Shown piece by piece: positions 4,794-56,985 of a DNA stretch of 64,000 nucleotides. Made by a program: the position numbers and the translations under genes. This stretch comes from Vulcanimicrobiota bacterium (GTDB lineage: Bacteria > Vulcanimicrobiota > Xenobia > Xenobiales > JADMJV01), in contig JBFWNU010000003.1 of assembly GCA_050250895.1 (NCBI GenBank), positions 128,001 through 192,000 of the forward strand, read 5' to 3'. The stretch's first letter is position 1; every line of letters begins with the position of its first letter. The notes beneath the pieces were generated by a model. That model was not told the DNA's origin. It was given only the letters and a program-made list of their open reading frames with translations, and did no database searches.

Positions 4794-5791
4794 GGACCGC
4801 CCACCAGTTTGGCCTGTTCATTGGCCCAGGTTTTCAGCCAATCCGCGGGTTGGGCGGCCAGGGCCGCGCGATAGCTCTCCAGGGCCACTTGGGGGCGGCC
4901 CAGGCGGCGAGCCAGCTCGCCTCGCAAGTAGAGTAGATTGGCTCGGGAGGGGCCCTCGGCTTCGGGGGTCTCGAGGCCCGCTTCGAGTAGCTGCAGCACG
5001 CGTTCGAGATAGCTGCGCTCGTGGGCGATGCTGGCCGTGACCTGCTGCTCGAGTTGGGGTTGACGCATGGCCGCAACCAGGCGCGGTAGGGCCTGTTCGA
5101 GTTCACTCAATTCCCCGTGGGTGCGGAGCAAGAACCCCGCCAGGGTCGCCTGAGGACCGCTCAGCTCGGGCCCGGCCAGTAGCTGGCGGGCCATCTCGAC
5201 TTCGATGTCGGCCCGCCCCGCCTCGGTGTCGGGCTCGAGCGCTTGCAGGGCCGTCTTCCACTCTTCTTCTGAGAGCTGCCCGGCCAGGGGCGTGAAGGGG
5301 TTGTCCTCGAGGCGCACCGACCAGGCCGCGCGGTGAAGGAAGAGGGCCTGGGTCAGCACCGGGTCGTCCACCAGTTTGGATTGCTGAGCCATCAGGTCCC
5401 AACGCGCCCAGGCCGGCAGGCTCTGAAGCGAGTCGAGCCCTTCGGTGAAATAGGCGCGGGAAGGCCCGTTGGGAGTGATCGGTTGATGCTCGGGAAGCTT
5501 GAGTTCGGTCAGTCGCTTGAGCAGTTCGGGCGGGACCGGTTCTTCGAACAGCGAGGCATCGGACACGGTGTAGTGGCACTTGGGACAGGTGGCCGGCGTC
5601 AGCAGCAGGGCGAAGCCTCCGGCCGGGCGCTCGAGAAAGTCACGGTCCATTCCCCCGGCGTTGTTGCTGGTGTAGAGCACGGTCACGCTGACTTGCGTGC
5701 CGCAGGCTGGACAGGTCGCCTCTTCGACAGCCCCGGTGGTGGCCCAGGCGGGAAGCCACAACACCAGTAGTACTAGGAGTTTCCTCAACAT
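4790..5791 (-). CDS. exported DUF2225-like Zn-ribbon/TPR protein
   Basis: Signal peptide; CPACG and CPKCHY; HRAAW; C-terminal TPR-like YLRGELARRLG. Confidence 0.7.
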   Translation of the reverse strand: MLRKLLVLLVLWLPAWATTGAVEEATCPACGTQVSVTVLYTSNNAGGMDRDFLERPAGGFALLLTPATCPKCHYTVSDASLFEEPVPPELLKRLTELKLPEHQPITPNGPSRAYFTEGLDSLQSLPAWARWDLMAQQSKLVDDPVLTQALFLHRAAWSVRLEDNPFTPLAGQLSEEEWKTALQALEPDTEAGRADIEVEMARQLLAGPELSGPQATLAGFLLRTHGELSELEQALPRLVAAMRQPQLEQQVTASIAHERSYLERVLQLLEAGLETPEAEGPSRANLLYLRGELARRLGRPQVALESYRAALAAQPADWLKTWANEQAKLVGGP

Positions 5792-20518: not shown

Positions 20519-20680
20519 CTCGCTGCGCTCGCCAGGGAGCGAAGCTCGCGGGCTCGCTTCGGGAAAGGAGCGAAGCTCGCTGAGCTCGCTTCGGGAGAAG
20601 GAGCTCTTGCTTCGCGCGAGGGAGAAGGGGCGACCCTGCGGGCCGGGAGAAGAAGCGTCGGTCGCTACCGCTCCCTCCGA
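20519..20680. repeat. REP-like palindromic repeats
   Basis: Two tandem units ggagcgaagctcgc(gg/tga)gctcgcttcggga followed by degenerate hairpins. Confidence 0.6.
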
Positions 20681-21183
20681 GGTTGGACTTCCGTGCGGAA
20701 GTTGCCCGGAATCGGCCCGACAAACTGGTGCGGAGCTGGAACGGCGCTTTCGTGGTGGCTGTCAGGCCGGGCTCGATCACCGGCGTCGCGCAGTTTCTTC
20801 TTGCGCAGGTTGCCGGAGTTGACGGCGGTCCCGGCTGGCTCGACGGCCGTCAGCCGGTTGGAGTCGTCCGAGTCGTTCGCGTACGGCTCGGGTTGAGAAC
20901 CCGGGCGATCGTGGTGCCATTATTGTCGTGGTTAGACGACTCCACCAGCTCGTCTACCCCTCCGCGCACACGTGTGTCAAAATTATTTTCCGATGCGGCC
21001 GCCGAACCGCCTCGGAGGAGCCTCACCCCTAGACTGCTCGTGATAGCCCCTCCAGGACCCCCTCAGGCATTTGAACAGCCGAGTTTGAAGAAATCTTCAT
21101 TTCGGCCTCGAAAAGCTCGAATAATCATCGCTCAGAAAATGCGCAATTGCCTGTAAAATAAGGGTTTGAGTCGCATCGAATCT

Positions 21184-21213
21184 TTGACGAACAAGGGGAG
21201 CAAAGACTATCAT
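21184..21213 (+). promoter_or_regulatory. sigma70-like promoter of the HNH gene (leaderless)
   Basis: TTGACG-N18-TATCAT with ATG 6 nt downstream; hexamers identical in copy 2 (55609-55638). Confidence 0.6.
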
Positions 21214-21219
21214 GGATTT

Positions 21220-22278
21220 ATGATTACCGATGACAAGCAACGCGAATTCTGGACCCTCGAAAACTTGAGCAAGCTCCCTTATGAGCGGCTGGAAAGGGTG
21301 ACCCGTCGCCTGGCCAACACCCTGGCCCTGACTCGCATCCTGCTGGGGCGATGTCTGTTGGCTATCGAGCGCACCGACTTCTGCGCCCAGACCGGCTGCC
21401 ATTCGGCTATCCACTTCGCCCGGCTCATCAAAGTCGAGAAGCGCGAGGCGCTAGATTCAATGAGGATCGCCGGCCATCTCGAAGGGCTGCCGCTGTTTTC
21501 CAAAGCCTGCGAAGAGAACAGAATCTGCTGGTCCAATCTGCGTGTTGTCACCCGCATCGTGACGCCCGAGACCGAAGAGGCCTGGCTTGACCTGGCGGTG
21601 CGCCTCAAGCCTCATCGCCTGGCCCGTCTGGTGGCCGGGGCCAATCGCGGTGACACTCCGGCTGAAGCGGCCCTGAACATGGTAGAAGAGGTGGAGCTTC
21701 GTTTTCGGGTCGCTCCCGAGGTGTCCGAGCTGTGGTCGCGAGCCGTGACCGTGATCTCGAGAGACCATGGGGGCACGGTCAATCCGGCCGAGGCGTTCGA
21801 ATGGATCCTGGCCGACTTTCTGGGTGGCCAGGTAGAGCAGCTCAAGGTTGAGGCCGCCCAGGACCTGGTCGCTCCGGTCGAGGCACTGGCAATGCGGACA
21901 CACGTGTGTCCGGGCGAGTCGAAGTTGCAACTGGCCGGACGGTTGAGGTTCAATCCCAGCAAGCGGCAGGCGACTGCCGCCCAGCGCCGGGCAGTGCTGC
22001 GGCGGGATGGCTATCGCTGCTCTTGTCCGGGTTGCCCCAACCGACTCTGGCTCGATGTGCATCACGTGGTATTCTACTGTCGGGGCGGACCGACGGTGCC
22101 CGAGAATCTGGTGGTGGTGTGCTCGCGCTGCCACAAGAACATCCATCGGGGCATCCTGCAAGTGAGCGGGGTGGCGCCCCGGGAGCTGGTCTGGCGCGAT
22201 CGTCGCGGCCGTGACCTCGAACGCCAGCGAGAGAGCGGGCTATTGGAATGGCTGCTGGAATGGGCTCGAGCTGGCTAA
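21220..22278 (+). CDS. DUF222-like domain plus C-terminal HNH endonuclease
   Basis: RRAVLRRDGYRCSCPGC..LDVHHV..GGPT..ENLVVVCSRCHKNIH; N-region resembles DUF222; start set at MITDD. Confidence 0.88.
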   Translation: MITDDKQREFWTLENLSKLPYERLERVTRRLANTLALTRILLGRCLLAIERTDFCAQTGCHSAIHFARLIKVEKREALDSMRIAGHLEGLPLFSKACEENRICWSNLRVVTRIVTPETEEAWLDLAVRLKPHRLARLVAGANRGDTPAEAALNMVEEVELRFRVAPEVSELWSRAVTVISRDHGGTVNPAEAFEWILADFLGGQVEQLKVEAAQDLVAPVEALAMRTHVCPGESKLQLAGRLRFNPSKRQATAAQRRAVLRRDGYRCSCPGCPNRLWLDVHHVVFYCRGGPTVPENLVVVCSRCHKNIHRGILQVSGVAPRELVWRDRRGRDLERQRESGLLEWLLEWARAG

Positions 22279-22518
22279 GTTGCGGCGACGGAGAAGTGAC
22301 CCCCGATACTAGAACTTTCTCTGGCGGAGGGGGTCGCTGAGCCGTCGCCCCGGGCGGGCTCGTTTCGTGCGCAGTTCCATCAGGTTCGACGTGGTCTGAG
22401 AACTGCGCCCGCGCGCCTTTCAGCGACGCTCACGCCCTTCTCCGTTGCAGTCCTTGCTCACGTCCCGCGGCGCTGGCGAGCGCCCTTTGGGCAAAGAGAG
22501 CGCCAGCGCCCCGGTGGC
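22279..22518 (+). ncRNA. candidate structured ncRNA, copy A (~240 nt)
   Basis: Nested stems 22285-96/22437-48, 22296-304/22329-37, 22338-48/22423-32, 22369-77/22400-08 and 22469-78/22501-10; G-U pairs favour the + strand; three copies in the window. Confidence 0.55.
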
Positions 22519-22521
22519 GTT

Positions 22522-23043
22522 TCAGATACGACACGCGTCCTGAGGTTTCGGCCCGACCGAGCGTCCGGTTCCAAGCTTCTGCGCACGAATACAGTCAAAC
22601 AGTTCGTCACGTCCGATTCTGATTCTCTTAACAGATCCTTCTCTAGTCACTCGCATTTCGAAGGTCTCAACCTCCTGGTGACAGGCGTCGAGAAGAGCCG
22701 ATGGCCCAGTAATCTCGACGCCGTTAACAGCCTGCAATAGGTCGCCAGCTTCTAGGCGCATACAAGCGAAAGCTCCTTGTGGCTCCCTGATTAGCAAGCC
22801 TCCATCAACAAACTCCGCAGGAGGCAAGTATTGCCTTTCGGGTTCGACTTTCTGCTCGTCCTGGGATTCGTGCGCATTTTCTCGCTCCGCTAGTCGCGGA
22901 TAGCACTTTCCCCCTCCATTAACCTGATGTGAGGAACTAACCCGCGTGGTGGTGTCGACTGTTCGGCTGACAAGCTGGGCTCCCAGAGCGACAAAGGCCA
23001 AGACCACAATGATTGTAAGGCTGTTTGCGAGTGATATCTTCAT
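22522..23043 (-). CDS. membrane-anchored PDZ-like protein, putative immunity or partner of the Rhs toxin
   Basis: N-terminal TM; LEAGDLLQAVNGVEI (PDZ-like); ATGA overlap with the toxin stop; lower GC. Confidence 0.65.
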   Translation of the reverse strand: MKISLANSLTIIVVLAFVALGAQLVSRTVDTTTRVSSSHQVNGGGKCYPRLAERENAHESQDEQKVEPERQYLPPAEFVDGGLLIREPQGAFACMRLEAGDLLQAVNGVEITGPSALLDACHQEVETFEMRVTREGSVKRIRIGRDELFDCIRAQKLGTGRSVGPKPQDACRI

Positions 23044-24281
23044 GGCATGTACCTGGTTCCCTCAAAGAGAATGTTCGGGTGCGACTCTATGATTTGCCCC
23101 CTCATACCCTCGAAGTTGCCTTTAAAGAGATCCTTGCGAAAGGCTTCCTGAGCTTCGCGCATCTTGTCTAGCTCTGGAGGGTACAACATTCCGAAGAGAC
23201 TAGAAAGGGTTTCTGCAAAAACCTCCGAGTTAAGTTGGTCATCGGAGTTTTTCCGGCTTGCTCCATAAAAAGTCCACCAAACGTAGTGACCGCACTCGTG
23301 AACCAAGGTATTTAACTCAACTAGCCGAAATGGTCGGGGCTGCTTTTCTATGAAGATGTCCACAGACCCGTCTTCATTCAACCTTGCCGCTCCGTATTTC
23401 CCACCCATGCGTTCAATGTCATTGCCCTTCACGTAATTGATTTTTGGAGGCGGCACCAGAGCTTGGGCTAGGCCCAGATAGAGCGAGTCCGCTCCTTGTT
23501 CCAGAGAGCCGAACCAAGATTCCAAGCCACTCGGGTCGACCTTGCCAATCGGATTCCCGCCAACATACCCATACAGGTTCAAGCCACCCGCAAACCCGAT
23601 CGGGTCGCGACTCAAGAACCTGGCGGTGGCGGGGTCATAATGGCGCTGGCGCATGTAGAGCAAGCCGGTATCGGCGGTGTCGTCGTGGACGCCCAGGCCA
23701 CCCACGTAGGTCTTCGGACTCACCACCGAGCCCGAGTAGGCGATCTGCTGGCCGAACTCGTCGTATTCATAATAGGCCAACTGACTGCCATCGGCGCCGT
23801 CCACGACCACCCGCACCGATGAGAGCCCATCGGTTAGGAAGAAGCGGAAGTCGCCACCGCGGTCAAAGCCCAGGAGTTGGTGACCCATGAAGTAGCTGAT
23901 CTCCACCGGTGAACCGGCGCTCGGCGTCTCGACCTCGCTCACGGTTGGCAAGCCAGAGAAGTGGCTACGGGTCTCGGTACCGTCGGCAGCAGTCTTGAGC
24001 TTGCGCAAGCCGCCAGTATCGTAGTGTTGGACGACGGTCTCGTCGGCAGGTTGTTTCTCGACCGCAACCAAACGGTCGAAAGTATCCCACGAGAAAGTGT
24101 TGGTGTTGGTGCCGTCGTCCGACTCGATCATGTCCCCATCATCGTCGTAGGCAAAGGTCTCCACCGATGTCGTGAAATCTCCTTCGTCCCGAGACTGGAA
24201 GGTCCCGGAGAAGATCTCCTGGAGTTGATTCGCGTCGTCATAGTCGTAAAGGTAGCTCACGCTAGCTCCGTGGTCGTCCAT
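23040..24281 (-). CDS. Rhs repeat-associated core with C-terminal HExxH metallopeptidase-type toxin (3' part of a broken rhs gene)
   Basis: GLLYMRQRHYDPATARFLSRDPIG..NLYGYVGGNP..DPSGL; C-terminal domain has VHECGH...SEVFAE. Confidence 0.85.
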   Translation of the reverse strand: MDDHGASVSYLYDYDDANQLQEIFSGTFQSRDEGDFTTSVETFAYDDDGDMIESDDGTNTNTFSWDTFDRLVAVEKQPADETVVQHYDTGGLRKLKTAADGTETRSHFSGLPTVSEVETPSAGSPVEISYFMGHQLLGFDRGGDFRFFLTDGLSSVRVVVDGADGSQLAYYEYDEFGQQIAYSGSVVSPKTYVGGLGVHDDTADTGLLYMRQRHYDPATARFLSRDPIGFAGGLNLYGYVGGNPIGKVDPSGLESWFGSLEQGADSLYLGLAQALVPPPKINYVKGNDIERMGGKYGAARLNEDGSVDIFIEKQPRPFRLVELNTLVHECGHYVWWTFYGASRKNSDDQLNSEVFAETLSSLFGMLYPPELDKMREAQEAFRKDLFKGNFEGMRGQIIESHPNILFEGTRYMP

Positions 24282-53537: not shown

Positions 53538-53620
53538 TGTGCGCCGCACAATGAGTCGACCGGCGTGTACGGCGCACACGTGCGCCGCACAATAGCTCGA
53601 CCGAGGTGTGCGGCGCACAT
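53538..53620. repeat. two tandem ~42-bp palindromic units
   Basis: gtgcgccgcacaat..tcgaccg..tgt(a/g)cggcgcaca repeated twice; each unit can form a hairpin. Confidence 0.75.
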
Positions 53621-53703: not shown

Positions 53704-53941
53704 GTTGCGGCGACGGTGAAGTGACCCCCGCTAGTCGTGCTTTCTCGCTGACGGGGTCGCTGAGCCGTCGCCCCGAGCGCGCTCCTAGCGCGGGCAGTTC
53801 CATCAGGTTCGACGTGGTCTGATAACTGCGCCCGCGCGCCTTTCAACGACGCTCACGCCCTTCTCCGTTGCAGTCCTTGCTCACGTCCCGGGGCGCTGGC
53901 GAGCGCCCTTTCGTGAAAGGGCGCGCCAGCGCCCCGGTGGC
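53704..53941 (+). ncRNA. candidate structured ncRNA, copy B (no adjacent upstream HNH gene)
   Basis: Aligns with 22279-22518; same stems; terminal hairpin ggggcgctggcg..gcccttt-cgtg-aaagggc..cgccagcgcccc. Confidence 0.55.
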
Positions 53942-53952
53942 TTGGGGGTCCC

Positions 53953-54240
53953 TCAGGGAACTCCCAAGCCCTTCATTACCAAAGCCTCCATTCGGTCGAC
54001 ATGGTTGCGATATTCCTCGACAGAGATATTGGGTGCTTCCTGCCAACTCATAAACAGGGGAATGAACCAGGTTAGAGCGACCAAGCGTTGTGGCATATGC
54101 TCAACATTAGGGTTCAGACACTCAAGTAGAGACTCCACTCTTCGAAAACCTTCTTGGTCAAAACCCTTCATCCTGAGTATTGCAAAGAATCCTGATTCCC
54201 ACTCATGCTCGAGTTTTTCGATGATTTCTTGATTGTTCAC
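53953..54240 (-). CDS. putative immunity protein of the Rhs ART toxin
   Basis: 95 aa; lower GC; GGAGG Shine-Dalgarno; 9 nt downstream of the toxin stop. Confidence 0.75.
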   Translation of the reverse strand: MNNQEIIEKLEHEWESGFFAILRMKGFDQEGFRRVESLLECLNPNVEHMPQRLVALTWFIPLFMSWQEAPNISVEEYRNHVDRMEALVMKGLGVP

Positions 54241-54249
54241 GCTACCTCC

Positions 54250-55155
54250 TCAAGGTCTGATTTGCCATTGAATAGCTTCCGGTGGAACGAAGTCTCGGAT
54301 GAGGACTTCCTTGCCCATTCTCGCCCAAGCATTTAGCATTCTTGCCGCCGGTCCAAACGGCCCTGACGAAATATCTACGATTTCCGTGGTCACCAAAGAA
54401 AGGTCAATCTTGACCTGACCGAAAAAGCCATTCTTCGTGAATTGCATTGCGGCCTCGCTGGTCTTTGCAGTCGAGATCCATGGACTTAGTCTCTTACCTG
54501 CGACGTGTGACATTGGTGTCACTTCTGTAGCGCCCGGCGCGCGCGCCTGCAATCCTGCTGATGGATTTTCGCCTGGAGCCAGATTGCGAAAGACATACCC
54601 CTTCGGACATTCCTCCGCTGCGTTGGCGGCGGCGGAGAAGCCGAGTGCTGCCTCACCTGACACCGTGGCCGCACGGGCGACCCTGGCCGCGGCCAGATTC
54701 GAGCTTAGCCCCGTGGCGGATCCTACCAGAACCAAGGCGTAGTATGCGCTTTGAGCCTTTGTAGCCTTGCCGGAACCCCAGCCCTGACCAGCTTCCTGGG
54801 CAACCGTCGCTCCGCTCACGTCGAGCATCACGCCCCATGCTCGAAGCCCTGTTGCCTCCACCCAGCCACCAAGTCCGCCCCGGTCAATCGCGAGATTTGC
54901 TTGTTGGTCGAGATATACCTTGTTGGCGTGGGGGTCATCGAAAGTCCCTAGGCCTTCCAATCCGCTGGGGTCAGAGTGATTAACGGGATTCCCGCCGACA
55001 TACCCATACAGGTTCAAGCCACCAGCGAACCCAATCGGGTCCCTGCTCAGGAACCTGGCTAAGGTCGGGTCGTAATGCCGCTGCCGCATGTAGAGCAGCC
55101 CGGTGTCGGCCGTGTCGTCGTGCACGCCCAGGCCACCCACGTAAGTCTTCGGGCT
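54250..55155 (-). pseudogene. orphan Rhs core tip with C-terminal R-S-E ADP-ribosyltransferase-type toxin
   Basis: PKTYVGG...DPSGL core almost identical to 23530-23720; C-terminal domain has YVFRN, SPWIST and KEVL; no upstream YD repeats or convincing start. Confidence 0.78.
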
Positions 55156-55644
55156 ATCCGAGTCGGAACTCGGGTCCTTCGCCCCCCCATTCGTTGTGGA
55201 GGAAGTTGGAGGTCGCCCCGTTCGAGGCATTGACCATCACCCGAGCCGAGGAAAGCCCAGACCTCGGAGACCGTCGGCGTCGCGCACTTTCTTCTTGCGC
55301 AGGTTGCCGGAGTTGACGGTGTCCCGGCTCGACGGCCGTCAGCCCGTTGGAGTCGTTCGCGTCGGCTCAGGCCGAGGACCCTACCCCCCCCCGCACACGT
55401 GTGCCAAAAAAAATAAGATGCGGCCGCCCAACCGCCTCGGAGGTGCCTCCCCCCTAAACTGCTCGTGACAGCCTCTCCAGGACCCCCTCAGGCACTTGGC
55501 CAGCCGAGTTTGAAGAAATCTTCATTTTGGCCTCTCAAAGCTCGAATAATCATCGCTTAGAAAGTGCGCAATTGCCTATGAAATAAGGGTTTGAGCTGCA
55601 TCGAATCTTTGACGAACAAGGGGAGCAGAGACTATCATGGACCT

Positions 55645-56703
55645 ATGATTACCGATGATAAGCAACGCGAATTCTGGACCCTCGAGAACTTGAGCAAGCT
55701 CCCTCACGAGCGGCTGGAAAGGGTGATCCGTCGCCTGGCCAACACCCTGGCCCTGACTCGCATCCTGCTGGGGCGATGTCTGTTGGCTATCGAGCGCACC
55801 GACTTCTGCGCCGAGACCGGCTGCCACTCGGCTATCCATTTCGCCCGGCTGATCAAAGTCGAGAAGCGCGAGGCGCTAGATTCGATGCGGATCGCCGGCC
55901 ATCTCGAAGAGCTGCCGCTGTTTTCCAAAGCCTGCGAAGAGAACCGAATCTGCTGGTCCAATCTGCGTGTGGTCACCCGCATCGTGACGCCCGAGACCGA
56001 AGAGGCCTGGCTTGACCTGGCGGTGCGCCTTAAGCCTCATCGCCTGGCCCGTCTGGTGGCCGGGGCCAGCCGCGGTGACACTCCGGCCGAGGCGGCCCTG
56101 AACCTGGTAGAAGAGGTGGAACTCCGTTTCCGGGTCGCTCCCGAGGTGTCCGAGTTGTGGTCGCGGGCCGTGGGCGTGATCTCGAGGGAACACGGCGGCA
56201 CGGTCAATCCGGCCGAGGCGTTCGAATGGATCCTGGCCGACTTTCTGGGCGGCCAGGTAGAGCAGCTCAGGGTCGAGGCCGCCCAGGAGCTGGTCGCTCC
56301 GGTCGAGGCGCTGGCAATGCAGACACACGTGTGTCCGGGCGAGTCGAAGTTGCAATTGGCCGGACGGTTGAGGTTCAATCCGAGCAAGCGGCAGGCGACT
56401 GCCGCCCAGCGCCGGGCAGTGCTGCGGCGGGATGGCTATCGCTGCTCTTGCCCGGGCTGCCCCAATCGACTTTGGCTCGATGTGCATCACGTGGTGTTCT
56501 ACTGTCGCGGCGGACCGACGGTGCCCGAAAACCTGGTGGTGGTGTGCTCGCGCTGCCACAAGAACATCCATCAGGGCATCCTGCGCGTGAGCGGGGTGGC
56601 TCCCCAGGGGCTGGTCTGGCGCGATCGCCGGGGGCGCGAGCTGGAACGCGAGCCCGAGAGCGGGCTATTGGAATGGCTGCTGGAATGGGCTCGAGCTGGC
56701 TAA
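55645..56703 (+). CDS. DUF222-like domain plus HNH endonuclease, copy 2
   Basis: Same length as copy 1 and nearly identical protein; HNH motif intact. Confidence 0.88.
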   Translation: MITDDKQREFWTLENLSKLPHERLERVIRRLANTLALTRILLGRCLLAIERTDFCAETGCHSAIHFARLIKVEKREALDSMRIAGHLEELPLFSKACEENRICWSNLRVVTRIVTPETEEAWLDLAVRLKPHRLARLVAGASRGDTPAEAALNLVEEVELRFRVAPEVSELWSRAVGVISREHGGTVNPAEAFEWILADFLGGQVEQLRVEAAQELVAPVEALAMQTHVCPGESKLQLAGRLRFNPSKRQATAAQRRAVLRRDGYRCSCPGCPNRLWLDVHHVVFYCRGGPTVPENLVVVCSRCHKNIHQGILRVSGVAPQGLVWRDRRGRELEREPESGLLEWLLEWARAG

Positions 56704-56920
56704 GTTGCGGCGACGGAGAAGTGACCTTTTCTGGCTTTGGGGTGCTGAGCCGTCACCCGCGGGCGCGCTCGTTTCGTGCGCAGTTCAATCAGGTTTATCG
56801 TGGTCCGAGAACCGCGCCCGGGCGCCTTTCAGCCATGATCACGCCCTTCTCCGTTGCACTCCTTGCTCACGTCCGCGGCGCTGGCGAGCGCCCCTTTGGG
56901 CCCAGAAAGCGTCATCGCGC
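56704..56920 (+). ncRNA. candidate structured ncRNA, copy C (more diverged)
   Basis: Starts right after TAA; retains gcgacggagaag/cttctccgttgc and ccttgctcacgtcc; other stems weakened. Confidence 0.5.
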
Positions 56921-56985
56921 CTAGCCCCGATTTCGCGGTAGACGATCTCGGCGAGGCGTCCGTGGCCGAATCCCTCAAAAACTCG

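What the first reader, a model, noticed from the sequence alone, without database searches (positions are those of the whole stretch)
20781..22518. DUF222-like/HNH nuclease gene with a conserved ~240-nt structured sequence starting at its stop codon: candidate RNA-associated HNH element
Seen: both HNH genes are followed immediately after TAA by GTTGCGGCGACGGAGAAGTGACC..., which folds into nested stems. A 12-bp long-range helix (22285-96/22437-48) encloses three further stems, followed by a conserved linker CCTTGCTCACGTCC and a GC-rich terminal hairpin. Between copies A and B the stems are largely kept while loops vary (22305-28; terminal loop gggc vs cgtg). G-U pairs on the + strand favour folding in the ORF's orientation. 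Known: IscB/HEARO and TnpB are nuclease-plus-ncRNA units, and the TnpB RNA lies at the ORF 3' end with its guide taken from flanking DNA. This protein shows no RuvC motifs, and I know of no RNA partner for DUF222-HNH proteins. Inference: an undescribed HNH ribonucleoprotein, or a folded ssDNA element end.
Basis: partly seen in the sequence, partly recalled or inferred. Interest (0 to 1): 0.9.

Follow-up and report, generated by a model that had tools for sequence, protein, structure and literature searches.

The report
Structured repeat ending Rhs toxin cassettes
The folded sequence after the HNH gene is real, but it belongs to a repeat family that sits behind nearly every Rhs toxin-immunity cassette of this genome, so it looks like a cassette boundary element rather than a guide RNA for the nuclease.

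Summary
A conserved, strongly folding ~240-nt sequence starts at the stop codon of both HNH genes (22279-22518; 56704-56927). A third copy stands without any HNH gene (53704-53941).

It is a composite:
- An 82-nt hairpin module, "X".
- A ~165-nt "core" with two hairpins (H1, H2).

The core occurs 25 times closely, 8 times as a ~70%-identical variant, and several times as fragments in this 9.5-Mb genome. Compensatory changes support H1 and H2.

Of 27 Rhs core-end hits, 21 have a core tail-to-tail 940-1230 nt downstream, just behind the small immunity-like ORF. Variant copies follow ParE/RelE/PIN-like genes.

All 10 near-identical copies of the DUF222-like HNH gene are followed by at least the first 4-13 bases of X. 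Most cores have no HNH gene. HNH homologues in related genomes share no 3' sequence. The protein has no RuvC domain, Rfam has no match, and the core was not found outside this genome. Two relatives carry their own unrelated repeat blocks at the same place.

Best reading: a lineage-specific structured boundary repeat of polymorphic-toxin cassettes, with selfish HNH genes in the spacers. The HNH ribonucleoprotein idea is not supported.

The parts
20781..20825 (-). conserved leader ('D4') of orphan Rhs cassette ORFs. It lies just outside the 5' edge of the HNH module.
   Evidence: Repeat D4. Related copies lie next to other Rhs ends. The minus strand translates as ..VNSGNLRKKK.. at the start of orphan ORFs.
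20959..21219 (+). 5' part of the HNH module. It holds the palindrome CACACGTGTG (20967-20976) and a promoter-like site (21184-21213).
   Evidence: The module edge was defined by 9 aligned copies. Palindrome. TTGACG-18-TATCAT.
21220..22278 (+). DUF222-like HNH endonuclease gene (352 aa). It is one of 10 copies at 92% or more amino-acid identity (9 at 95% or more) and holds a second CACACGTGTG at 21899-21908.
   Evidence: Pfam HNH at E = 8.3e-7. Residues 49-311 align to a DUF222+HNH protein at E = 8e-21. Copy count.
22279..22360 (+). module X: an 82-nt hairpin module.
   Evidence: It occurs with and without a core and with and without HNH. An alternative fold appears in copy B. No covariation was found.
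22356..22525 (.). core copy A. Its parts are H1 (22369-22408, loop GTTCGACGTGGT), the linker CTCCGTTGCAGTC (22440-22452), H2 (22465-22514) and the end motif CGTTTCAG (22518-22525).
   Evidence: Covariance model R1 scores 193 bits. Covariation. The strand is not resolved.
22522..23043 (-). small low-GC immunity-like ORF (173 aa) whose stop codon lies in the core's end motif
   Evidence: No Pfam family.
23040..24281 (-). orphan Rhs fragment: the core end (..DPIGFAGGLNLYGYVGGNP..DPSGLE) plus a variable C-terminal domain
   Evidence: Translation. Weak RHS_repeat hit. Used as the query.
53704..53944 (.). copy B: X plus core, with no HNH gene, at the end of an Rhs array
   Evidence: R1 scores 180 bits.
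53953..55230 (-). orphan Rhs C-terminal ORF (54250-55230) and small ORF (53953-54240), ending 9 nt from copy B
55275..56703 (+). second HNH module: D4 leader (55275-55319), 5' region and ORF (55645-56703)
56704..56931 (.). copy C: X with a 15-nt deletion, plus a core whose H2 is decayed
   Evidence: R1 scores 133 bits.

Best explanation
The 240-nt sequence is a composite of an 82-nt hairpin module (X) and a ~165-nt two-hairpin core. The core is a lineage-specific, multi-copy structured repeat. It forms the downstream boundary of polymorphic-toxin cassettes.

Shown:
- On the cassette strand the order is: conserved Rhs core end, then about 1 kb of variable toxin tip plus immunity gene, then the stop codon, then the core.
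- The variable segment is bracketed by two conserved blocks.
- The two hairpins are kept by compensatory substitutions.
- Mosaic cores exist.
- Two related genomes carry their own unrelated repeat blocks at the same position.

Inferred:
- The core works as nucleic acid. It is a hairpin stop and a protecting 3' end for the convergent transcripts: the rhs-immunity operon on one strand and the HNH gene on the other.
- It is also the downstream homology or recombination block that lets toxin-immunity cassettes be exchanged and duplicated among about 25 loci.
- The DUF222-like HNH genes are separate selfish or helper nuclease genes. They live in the spacers between cassettes and have spread together with X.
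For: Copy number and limits:
- The own genome holds 25 close and 8 variant full-length cores, plus fragments.
- The core has a sharp 3' end at CGTTTCAG and at least three alternative 5' parts.

Link to cassettes:
- Of 27 Rhs core-end hits, 23 have a tail-to-tail core downstream, 21 of them at 940-1230 nt. Two more are pieces of one broken end beside a variant core. Two lie at contig ends and cannot be judged.
- 19 of 25 cores have a convergent ORF of 95-241 codons ending within about 31 nt. In 5 of these the stop codon is the TCA of the end motif.
- The flanking ORFs are low-GC (0.46-0.56) and differ from locus to locus.
- Variant cores follow ParE/RelE/PIN-like genes.

Structure:
- 93.1% of cells are paired. 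14 of 38 pairs show double changes, against 1-4 in slid controls. The covariation score is 0.211 against a shuffled 0.094, reached by 0 of 500 shuffles.

Outside this genome:
- Sludge-metagenome contigs carry the core and the Rhs core end. One contig joins 22513 to 23550 with what lies between not reported.
- In relatives G004 and G009, genome-specific blocks (10 and 14 matches) lie 0.6-1.3 kb downstream of Rhs ends.

HNH as a separate unit:
- 8 homologous genes share no 3' flank, and 28 homologue loci hold no core.
Against: - No transcript data exist, so the termination and stabilisation roles are inferred only.
- No canonical terminator was called: 0 found in 20900-23100.
- The strand is unresolved. 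Wobble-compatible cells number 46 on + against 27 on -. Excluding the weak outer pair 9/61 (19 UG cells), this becomes 27 against 27 by my subtraction from that call's table. Mean z is -2.23 (+) against -2.65 (-).
- The covariation rests mainly on two or three lineage splits (core versus variant, type 3 versus the rest), and the alignment was fitted to the model.
- Passive homology arms would not need conserved loops, yet the H1 loop GTTCRACGTGGT is nearly invariant. This hints at a sequence-specific partner.
- All 10 HNH copies keep at least the start of X, so the gene and X are not independent.
- No recombination event was observed directly.
Confidence: 0.55

Rival explanations
1. The core is the end of a non-autonomous mobile element (MITE/REPIN-like). 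Core and variant copies would be its long inverted terminal repeats, and the element would transpose or home behind toxin genes. It could be mobilised in trans by the HNH nuclease, by a tyrosine recombinase or by another enzyme.
For: - Four loci (C3:505986, C17:1401, C11:120917, C2:470084) carry a ~650-nt unit at 94-99% identity. It consists of an inverted variant core, a ~310-nt spacer and a core. Three more loci have variant-core pairs with other spacers.
- One HNH copy (C3:16589) lies between a variant core and a core.
- Mosaic modules and insertions occur exactly at the X/core junction.
- An IS110-like gene has inserted into one core.
Against: - The near one-to-one pairing with Rhs cassettes at a constant distance is not expected from free transposition.
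- I saw no target-site duplication in the flanks printed. This was by eye, not a formal test.
- Only 1 of 10 HNH copies has the inverted partner.
- No Y1/RAYT gene is present.
Confidence: 0.17
2. The core is an attC-like folded recombination site. Rhs toxin-immunity modules, with or without an HNH gene, would then be mobile gene cassettes that integrate by core-by-core recombination.
For: - Position at the 3' end of each cassette, sometimes holding the stop codon.
- Arrays of cassette-core-spacer-cassette-core with 2.4-4.6 kb spacing.
- Hairpins kept by covariation.
- A mosaic core, C10:11164, joins a type-1 first half to a type-3 second half.
- Toxin-antitoxin cassettes lie beside variant copies.
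- Tyrosine-recombinase fragments lie in some arrays.
Against: - No integron integrase scores above the cut-off: best 70 bits against 265.
- There are two hairpins over 165 nt instead of one.
- The R-box consensus, which I recalled from memory, was not seen by eye.
- Relatives have unrelated blocks at the same place. That fits concerted evolution of flanks as well as, or better than, a dedicated site.
Confidence: 0.1
3. The element is the RNA partner of the HNH protein. It would be a 3'-UTR-derived scaffold or guide forming an HNH ribonucleoprotein.
For: - All 10 HNH copies are followed by at least the first bases of X.
- A promoter-like site just upstream of the ORF would transcribe through the element.
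- Copy A folds better on the + strand. G-U pairs sit in helix P1 in 11 of 11 and 10 of 11 copies.
Against: - 4 of 10 HNH copies carry deleted or truncated elements.
- 19 of 25 close cores and all 8 variants have no adjacent HNH gene.
- There is no RuvC domain or other known RNA-guided architecture.
- Homologues elsewhere have no conserved 3' flank.
- The helices that involve X show no covariation.
- 7 of 13 HNH paralogues in this genome have neither a core nor an Rhs end within 4 kb.
Confidence: 0.05
4. The core is a family of small regulatory RNAs, or the template of antisense RNAs, that controls expression of the neighbouring toxin-immunity or toxin-antitoxin genes.
For: - The structure is conserved and the H1 loop sequence is nearly invariant.
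- The core abuts the 3' ends of toxin-type genes.
Against: - No sigma-70-like promoter was found in the ~650-nt type-2 unit: 0 found.
- Targets would differ at every locus.
- Relatives use unrelated sequences at the same place.
- No RNA data could be obtained.
Confidence: 0.08

Closest known systems
REP/BIME and REPIN extragenic palindromes of proteobacteria
   Same: Multi-copy hairpin-forming extragenic repeats. They sit just after stop codons, often between convergent genes and in inverted pairs, and are built as mosaics of modules.
   Different: - The unit is about 165 nt with two hairpins and conserved single-stranded parts, whereas REP units are far shorter (about 20-40 nt, a figure I recalled rather than tested).
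- No RAYT/Y1 transposase gene is in the genome.
- Copies are tied almost one-to-one to Rhs cassettes rather than spread over operon ends.
Rhs orphan cassette arrays (C-terminal displacement; orphan toxin-immunity modules recombining through the conserved core end)
   Same: A conserved core-end coding block, then a variable toxin tip, then a small immunity ORF. There are arrays of orphans, and a selfish gene sits in the arrays, as H-rpt/ISAs1 does in E. coli Rhs elements (recalled).
   Different: A conserved structured non-coding block closes each cassette downstream, and DUF222-like HNH genes occupy the spacers. I found neither described. See (listings), passages of PMC3482391 and of PMC4287609.
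Integron attC sites
   Same: A folded site at the 3' end of each cassette that sometimes contains the stop codon. Stems are kept by complementarity rather than by sequence. Toxin-antitoxin cassettes lie nearby.
   Different: No IntI. There are two hairpins and the site is longer. No R-box consensus was seen. Copies are dispersed over at least 12 contigs.
REP13E12 / DUF222-HNH multi-copy genes of mycobacteria
   Same: A DUF222-type N-terminal region plus an HNH motif, with about 10 near-identical copies per genome.
   Different: No direct Pfam DUF222 hit; the link runs through remote homologues. The gene sits in Rhs arrays next to a structured repeat. Of the REP13E12 literature I saw only a search listing.
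IscB/TnpB (OMEGA) nuclease-RNA units
   Same: A nuclease gene with a structured conserved sequence at its 3' end. The HNH motif resembles that of IscB.
   Different: No RuvC domain, no IS200/605 partner and no Rfam match. The structured sequence is not conserved with the protein family and occurs mostly without the gene.

Membership tests
IscB/TnpB RNA-guided nucleases | RuvC nuclease domain (split RuvC in IscB) | tested here: not met
   - Pfam at E up to 10 finds only HNH families.
- The NCBIfam IscB model matches only residues 252-311, the HNH part, at 40.9 bits against a cut-off of 175.
IscB/TnpB RNA-guided nucleases | a structured RNA next to the ORF that is conserved with the protein family | tested here: not met
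   - 8 full-length homologues in relatives share no 3'-flank similarity.
- 28 homologue loci hold no core.
- No Rfam match.
IscB/TnpB RNA-guided nucleases | IS200/IS605 context (Y1 TnpA, element ends) | tested here: not met
   PF01797 has 0 matches in the own genome, which is 99.6% complete.
DUF222-HNH (REP13E12-like) genes | HNH motif | tested here: met
   PF01844 at E = 8.3e-7, 29.5 bits against a cut-off of 21.4.
DUF222-HNH (REP13E12-like) genes | N-terminal DUF222 domain (PF02720) | tested here: inconclusive
   - No direct Pfam hit at E up to 10.
- Residues 49-311 align at 30% identity (E = 8e-21) with P0070, which has DUF222 at E = 3.3e-26.
DUF222-HNH (REP13E12-like) genes | several near-identical copies per genome | tested here: met
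   10 copies at 92-100% amino-acid identity.
REP/BIME/REPIN | many extragenic palindromic copies at gene 3' ends, in both orientations | tested here: met
   - 33 full-length copies.
- 19 of 25 abut a convergent ORF end.
- Inverted pairs exist.
REP/BIME/REPIN | a cognate RAYT (Y1 transposase) gene | tested here: not met
   none found.
MITE | terminal inverted repeats and target-site duplication | tested here: inconclusive
   - Four ~650-nt units have ~170-nt arms about 70% alike.
- I saw no duplication in the printed flanks. This was by eye only.
Integron attC | an IntI integrase in the genome | tested here: not met
   For TIGR02249 the best hit scores 70.2 bits against a cut-off of 265.
Integron attC | a single imperfect hairpin with R''/R' boxes | tested here: not met
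   There are two separate hairpins plus a 55-nt linker. The box consensus was recalled from memory and compared by eye.
Rhs toxin-immunity cassette | conserved core end (..DPxGL) followed by a variable tip and a small ORF | tested here: met
   - Translations.
- 27 core-end hits in the genome.
- The downstream ORFs are diverse and low-GC.

The most novel reading that the evidence does not exclude
In this bacterial family, Rhs toxin-immunity modules are true mobile gene cassettes. Each ends in a folded, attC-like element (here the 165-nt core). The DUF222-like HNH nucleases that sit between cassettes make the breaks, or recognise the folded element or the CACACGTGTG palindrome. These breaks would drive cassette insertion, duplication and exchange. 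This would be a nuclease-driven counterpart of the integron for polymorphic toxins.
Probability: 0.12. Interest if true: 0.85.

Novelty: new variant of a known kind. Interest (0 to 1): 0.45.

Why it matters
How new toxin tips and immunity genes enter and move between rhs loci is poorly understood. The known route is recombination through the conserved core end (abstract of PMC3482391; passages of PMC4287609).

Here the variable segment is also closed downstream by a conserved structured block. This holds in at least three genomes of the family, each with its own block. HNH nuclease genes recur in the spacers.

This gives a concrete, testable model for cassette exchange: a double crossover or site-specific recombination between two fixed flanks, possibly stimulated by a nuclease.

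It also warns against reading every structured sequence next to a nuclease gene as a guide RNA.

Tried and rejected
- **Rfam.** No family reached its gathering score in the whole window. At E up to 10 in 20700-22700 the only match was a snoRNA chance hit, 16.4 bits against 70.
- **Homologues of the element elsewhere.**
  - BLAST found it in 0 of 40 relatives.
  - Model R1 found it in 0 of 39 other genomes of the order.
  - One degenerate pattern scan each of genome contigs and metagenome contigs gave 1 hit each. Neither was confirmed by R1; the only match had E = 0.11 and lay elsewhere in the locus.
  - R1 with filters off on 27 Rhs loci of relatives scored at best 16.6 bits.
  - A cross-species covariation test was therefore not possible.
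- **HNH relatives by pattern.** The search for related loci in genome contigs confirmed none.
- **Expression.** No RNA holder was listed among the 20 runs returned. Only contigs of 4 DNA runs could be laid. Parts of the stretch without cover there are not evidence.
- **Strand from wobble pairs.** Inconclusive.
- **Coding remnant.** Rejected. Variable columns fall 31/31/34 by phase, copy lengths differ by non-multiples of 3, and the cassette-sense frames contain stops in 31 of 32 copies.
- **Promoters and terminators.**
  - 20900-23100: 2 promoter-like sites, one on each strand. The plus-strand one (10 of 12 matches) lies just upstream of the HNH ORF. No terminator was called.
  - The type-2 unit: no promoter-like site, and one weak terminator-like site outside the core.
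- **RNAalifold on A2.** It gave a poor first-half structure because of a misaligned row, so I set H1 and H2 by hand.
- **Integron integrase and RAYT.** Not found.
- **Literature.**
  - Searches for DUF222/HNH/Rhs and for polymorphic toxin, immunity gene, repetitive element, cassette and hairpin listed no paper describing such an element.
  - I read only matched passages of PMC3482391 and PMC4287609.
  - For REP13E12 I saw only the listing.
  - Supplements were not opened.
- **Tools and steps not used.** No structure or complex prediction was run, because the domain question was settled by profile searches.
Full report
**1. The observation**

- The 23-mer that follows TAA occurs three times in the window: at 22279, at 53704 (one mismatch) and at 56704. 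None is expected by chance.
- The three copies align from a sharp 5' edge to about CCCCGGTGGC.
- Copy A folds at -125.7 kcal/mol (z = -4.15; 0 of 200 shuffles fold as well).
- The minus strand folds at -117.4 kcal/mol (z = -2.56).
- Copies A and C follow the two HNH ORFs, 21220-22278 and 55645-56703.

**2. Anatomy of the element**

- Searching the window's own genome (9.5 Mb, 17 contigs) gave 47 matches (44 BLAST pieces). They are of two kinds: full length (positions 1-240 of A) and a shorter form starting at position 83.
- Aligning 25 copies with flanks shows a constant core (about positions 78-247 of A) that ends in CGTTTCAG. It is preceded by at least three unrelated 5' parts.
- The first 82 nt of A (module X) is one of these 5' parts. 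X also occurs alone or separated from a core by inserts of 120-1500 nt.
- A profile search added 8 variant copies about 70% identical to the core, plus a few more distant pieces. A covariance model (R1, 166 positions, 38 pairs) finds all 25 + 8 full-length copies at 69-200 bits.

**3. Structure**

- The core has two hairpins.
  - H1 has 9 + 4 bp with a two-base bulge and a 12-nt loop, GTTCRACGTGGT.
  - H2 is a ~22-bp GC-rich hairpin.
  - They are joined by a linker containing CTCCGTTGCAGTC.
- On 32 aligned copies:
  - 93.1% of cells pair.
  - 14 of 38 pairs have changes on both sides, against 1-4 when partners are slid by 1-3 columns.
  - The covariation score is 0.211 against a shuffled 0.094, reached by 0 of 500 shuffles.
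- Between core and variant, five positions of H1 change on both strands (A-U to G-C, G-C to C-G, U-A to C-G and so on). H2 changes at four or more positions.
- Caveats: these events lie on two or three lineage splits, and the alignment was fitted to the model.
They show no compensatory change (0 of 14 pairs). One-sided changes and mosaic copies break them.
- X can also pair within itself, and that is the predicted fold of copy B.
- The other 5' parts each bring a different hairpin.
- The strand is unresolved.
  - Wobble-compatible cells number 46 on + against 27 on -. Excluding the weak outer pair 9/61, which carries 19 UG cells, this becomes 27 against 27; that is my subtraction from the call's table.
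  - The core alone has a lower raw energy on the cassette strand in 26 of 32 copies.
  - After a composition control, mean z is -2.23 (+) against -2.65 (-).
- There is no coding signature.

**4. Context**

- Downstream of the cores, on the opposite strand, lie a small low-GC ORF and then an ORF with the Rhs core end and a variable tip.
- A 67-residue core-end peptide from the window hits the genome 27 times.
  - 23 hits have a tail-to-tail core downstream.
  - In 21 of these the distance is 940-1230 nt.
  - In the other 2 the nearest core (3.2 and 4.9 kb away) belongs to the next cassette.
  - 2 hits are pieces of one broken end next to a variant core.
  - 2 hits lie at contig ends and cannot be judged.
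- 19 of 25 cores have a convergent ORF of 95-241 codons ending within about 31 nt. In 5 of these the stop codon is the TCA of CGTTTCAG.
- Among the 8 variant copies, at least 5 follow ParE/RelE-like or PIN-like genes. These names are my reading of motifs in the translations, not a profile hit.
- Four loci carry a ~650-nt unit made of an inverted variant core, a spacer and a core.

**5. The HNH gene**

- The protein has only an HNH motif by Pfam.
- It matches the NCBIfam IscB model over the HNH part alone, far below the cut-off.
- Its residues 49-311 align with a protein that carries DUF222 plus HNH. "DUF222-like" is therefore fair, and an RNA-guided architecture is not.
- The genome has 10 copies at 92-100% identity.
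- The repeated module starts about 260 nt upstream of the ATG and continues into X.
- All 10 copies are followed by at least the first 4-13 bases of X.
  - 6 have the whole element.
  - 2 have internal deletions.
  - 2 are truncated, one after 13 nt and one after 118 nt.
- The palindrome CACACGTGTG occurs 19 times in the genome. 18 of these lie in or next to these modules, typically two per module.
- Of 13 more distant paralogues, 6 lie in Rhs arrays, five of them just upstream of and co-oriented with an orphan Rhs end. The other 7 have neither a core nor an Rhs end within 4 kb.

**6. Relatives**

- HNH homologues occur in 17 of 400 other genomes sampled from the phylum. 14 of these are among the 15 genomes of the same family.
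- In 28 fetched loci there is no core, and the 3' flanks of 8 full-length genes share nothing.
- Rhs core ends occur in 11 of 15 genomes of the family.
- Within G003, G004 and G009, and between G008 and G012, the regions 0.6-1.3 kb downstream of different Rhs ends share blocks of 37-204 nt at 75-97% identity.
- The G004 block has 10 matches and the G009 block 14 in their own genomes. For G004, 7 of the 9 Rhs ends listed have a block 0.6-1.2 kb downstream; this is my comparison of coordinates.
- These blocks are not detectably related to the core.
- An HNH-family gene lies directly upstream of the Rhs end in 3 of 3 fetched G004 loci, and head-to-head in 1 of 2 G001 loci.
- Contigs of four sludge runs cover the core and the Rhs core end but not the segment between. 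One contig joins 22513 to 23550, and what lies between is not known.

**7. Reading**

- Shown:
  - The element is a composite.
  - Its conserved unit is a two-hairpin core under structural constraint.
  - It is a dispersed repeat tied to the 3' ends of Rhs (and some toxin-antitoxin) cassettes.
  - The HNH gene is a separate multi-copy unit that shares the spacers.
- Inferred:
  - The core acts as a hairpin stop and protecting end for convergent transcripts.
  - Together with the conserved core end, it forms the second fixed flank for cassette exchange.
  - It evolves in concert within each genome.
- The near-invariant H1 loop and the recurrent HNH genes leave room for a sequence-specific partner. 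That is the basis of the bolder cassette-mobilisation reading, which I put at about 0.12.
- I put the HNH ribonucleoprotein reading at about 0.05.

**8. Taxonomy note**

The closest public relative of the HNH protein (87% identity) is named by NCBI as coming from a "Candidatus Eremiobacteraeota" MAG. I did not test the organism's placement.

Noticed in passing
window 20967-20976 and 21899-21908 (likewise 55394-55403 and 56324-56333): The palindrome CACACGTGTG occurs 19 times in the genome. 18 of these lie in or next to main-family HNH modules: typically one at the module's 5' edge and one inside the ORF. A relative's HNH 3' flank (L103) has GTGACACACGTGTGTCAC. It could be an operator or the nuclease's own site.
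   Followed up: partly
relatives: L118, L130, L138 (G004); L117, L129, L141 (G009); L127, L136 (G003); L133/L134 (G008/G012): Each genome has its own multi-copy, hairpin-rich block 0.6-1.3 kb downstream of Rhs core ends. These blocks are unrelated in sequence to the core described here.
   Followed up: partly
L130, L118, L138 (G004) and L120 (G001): An HNH-family gene sits directly upstream of an orphan Rhs end (G004) or head-to-head with it (G001). The HNH-Rhs array link therefore extends beyond this genome.
   Followed up: partly
G000:C10:4512-5760 (L024/L070): A 370-aa ORF starting MNIDTTKLRNVIYVGLDVHK cuts a core copy within H1. I read it as IS110-like from recall of that motif, not from a profile hit.
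   Followed up: no
G000:C5:563589-564644: This HNH copy has an in-frame TGA, and its element has lost about 200 nt internally while keeping both ends.
   Followed up: partly
window 53539-53619: Two tandem 40-nt palindromic units (85% alike) lie after the 1415-aa ORF. They occur at this locus only.
   Followed up: partly
window 20520-20680: A GC-rich repeat (..GCTCGCTTCGGGA.AGGAGCGAAGCTCGC..) has 48 BLAST pieces in the genome and high summed depth in sludge contigs.
   Followed up: no
L015:820-990 (G000:C3:505305-505475): A ParE-like gene next to a variant core appears frameshifted: ..YRIVYRVAV* is followed in another frame by ..VEIVRILHFRR...
   Followed up: no
G000:C2:8375-8509, C16:440-2148 and 5267-5401, C4:516271-516587: Tyrosine-recombinase-like genes or fragments lie inside or beside several Rhs/core arrays.
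   Followed up: no
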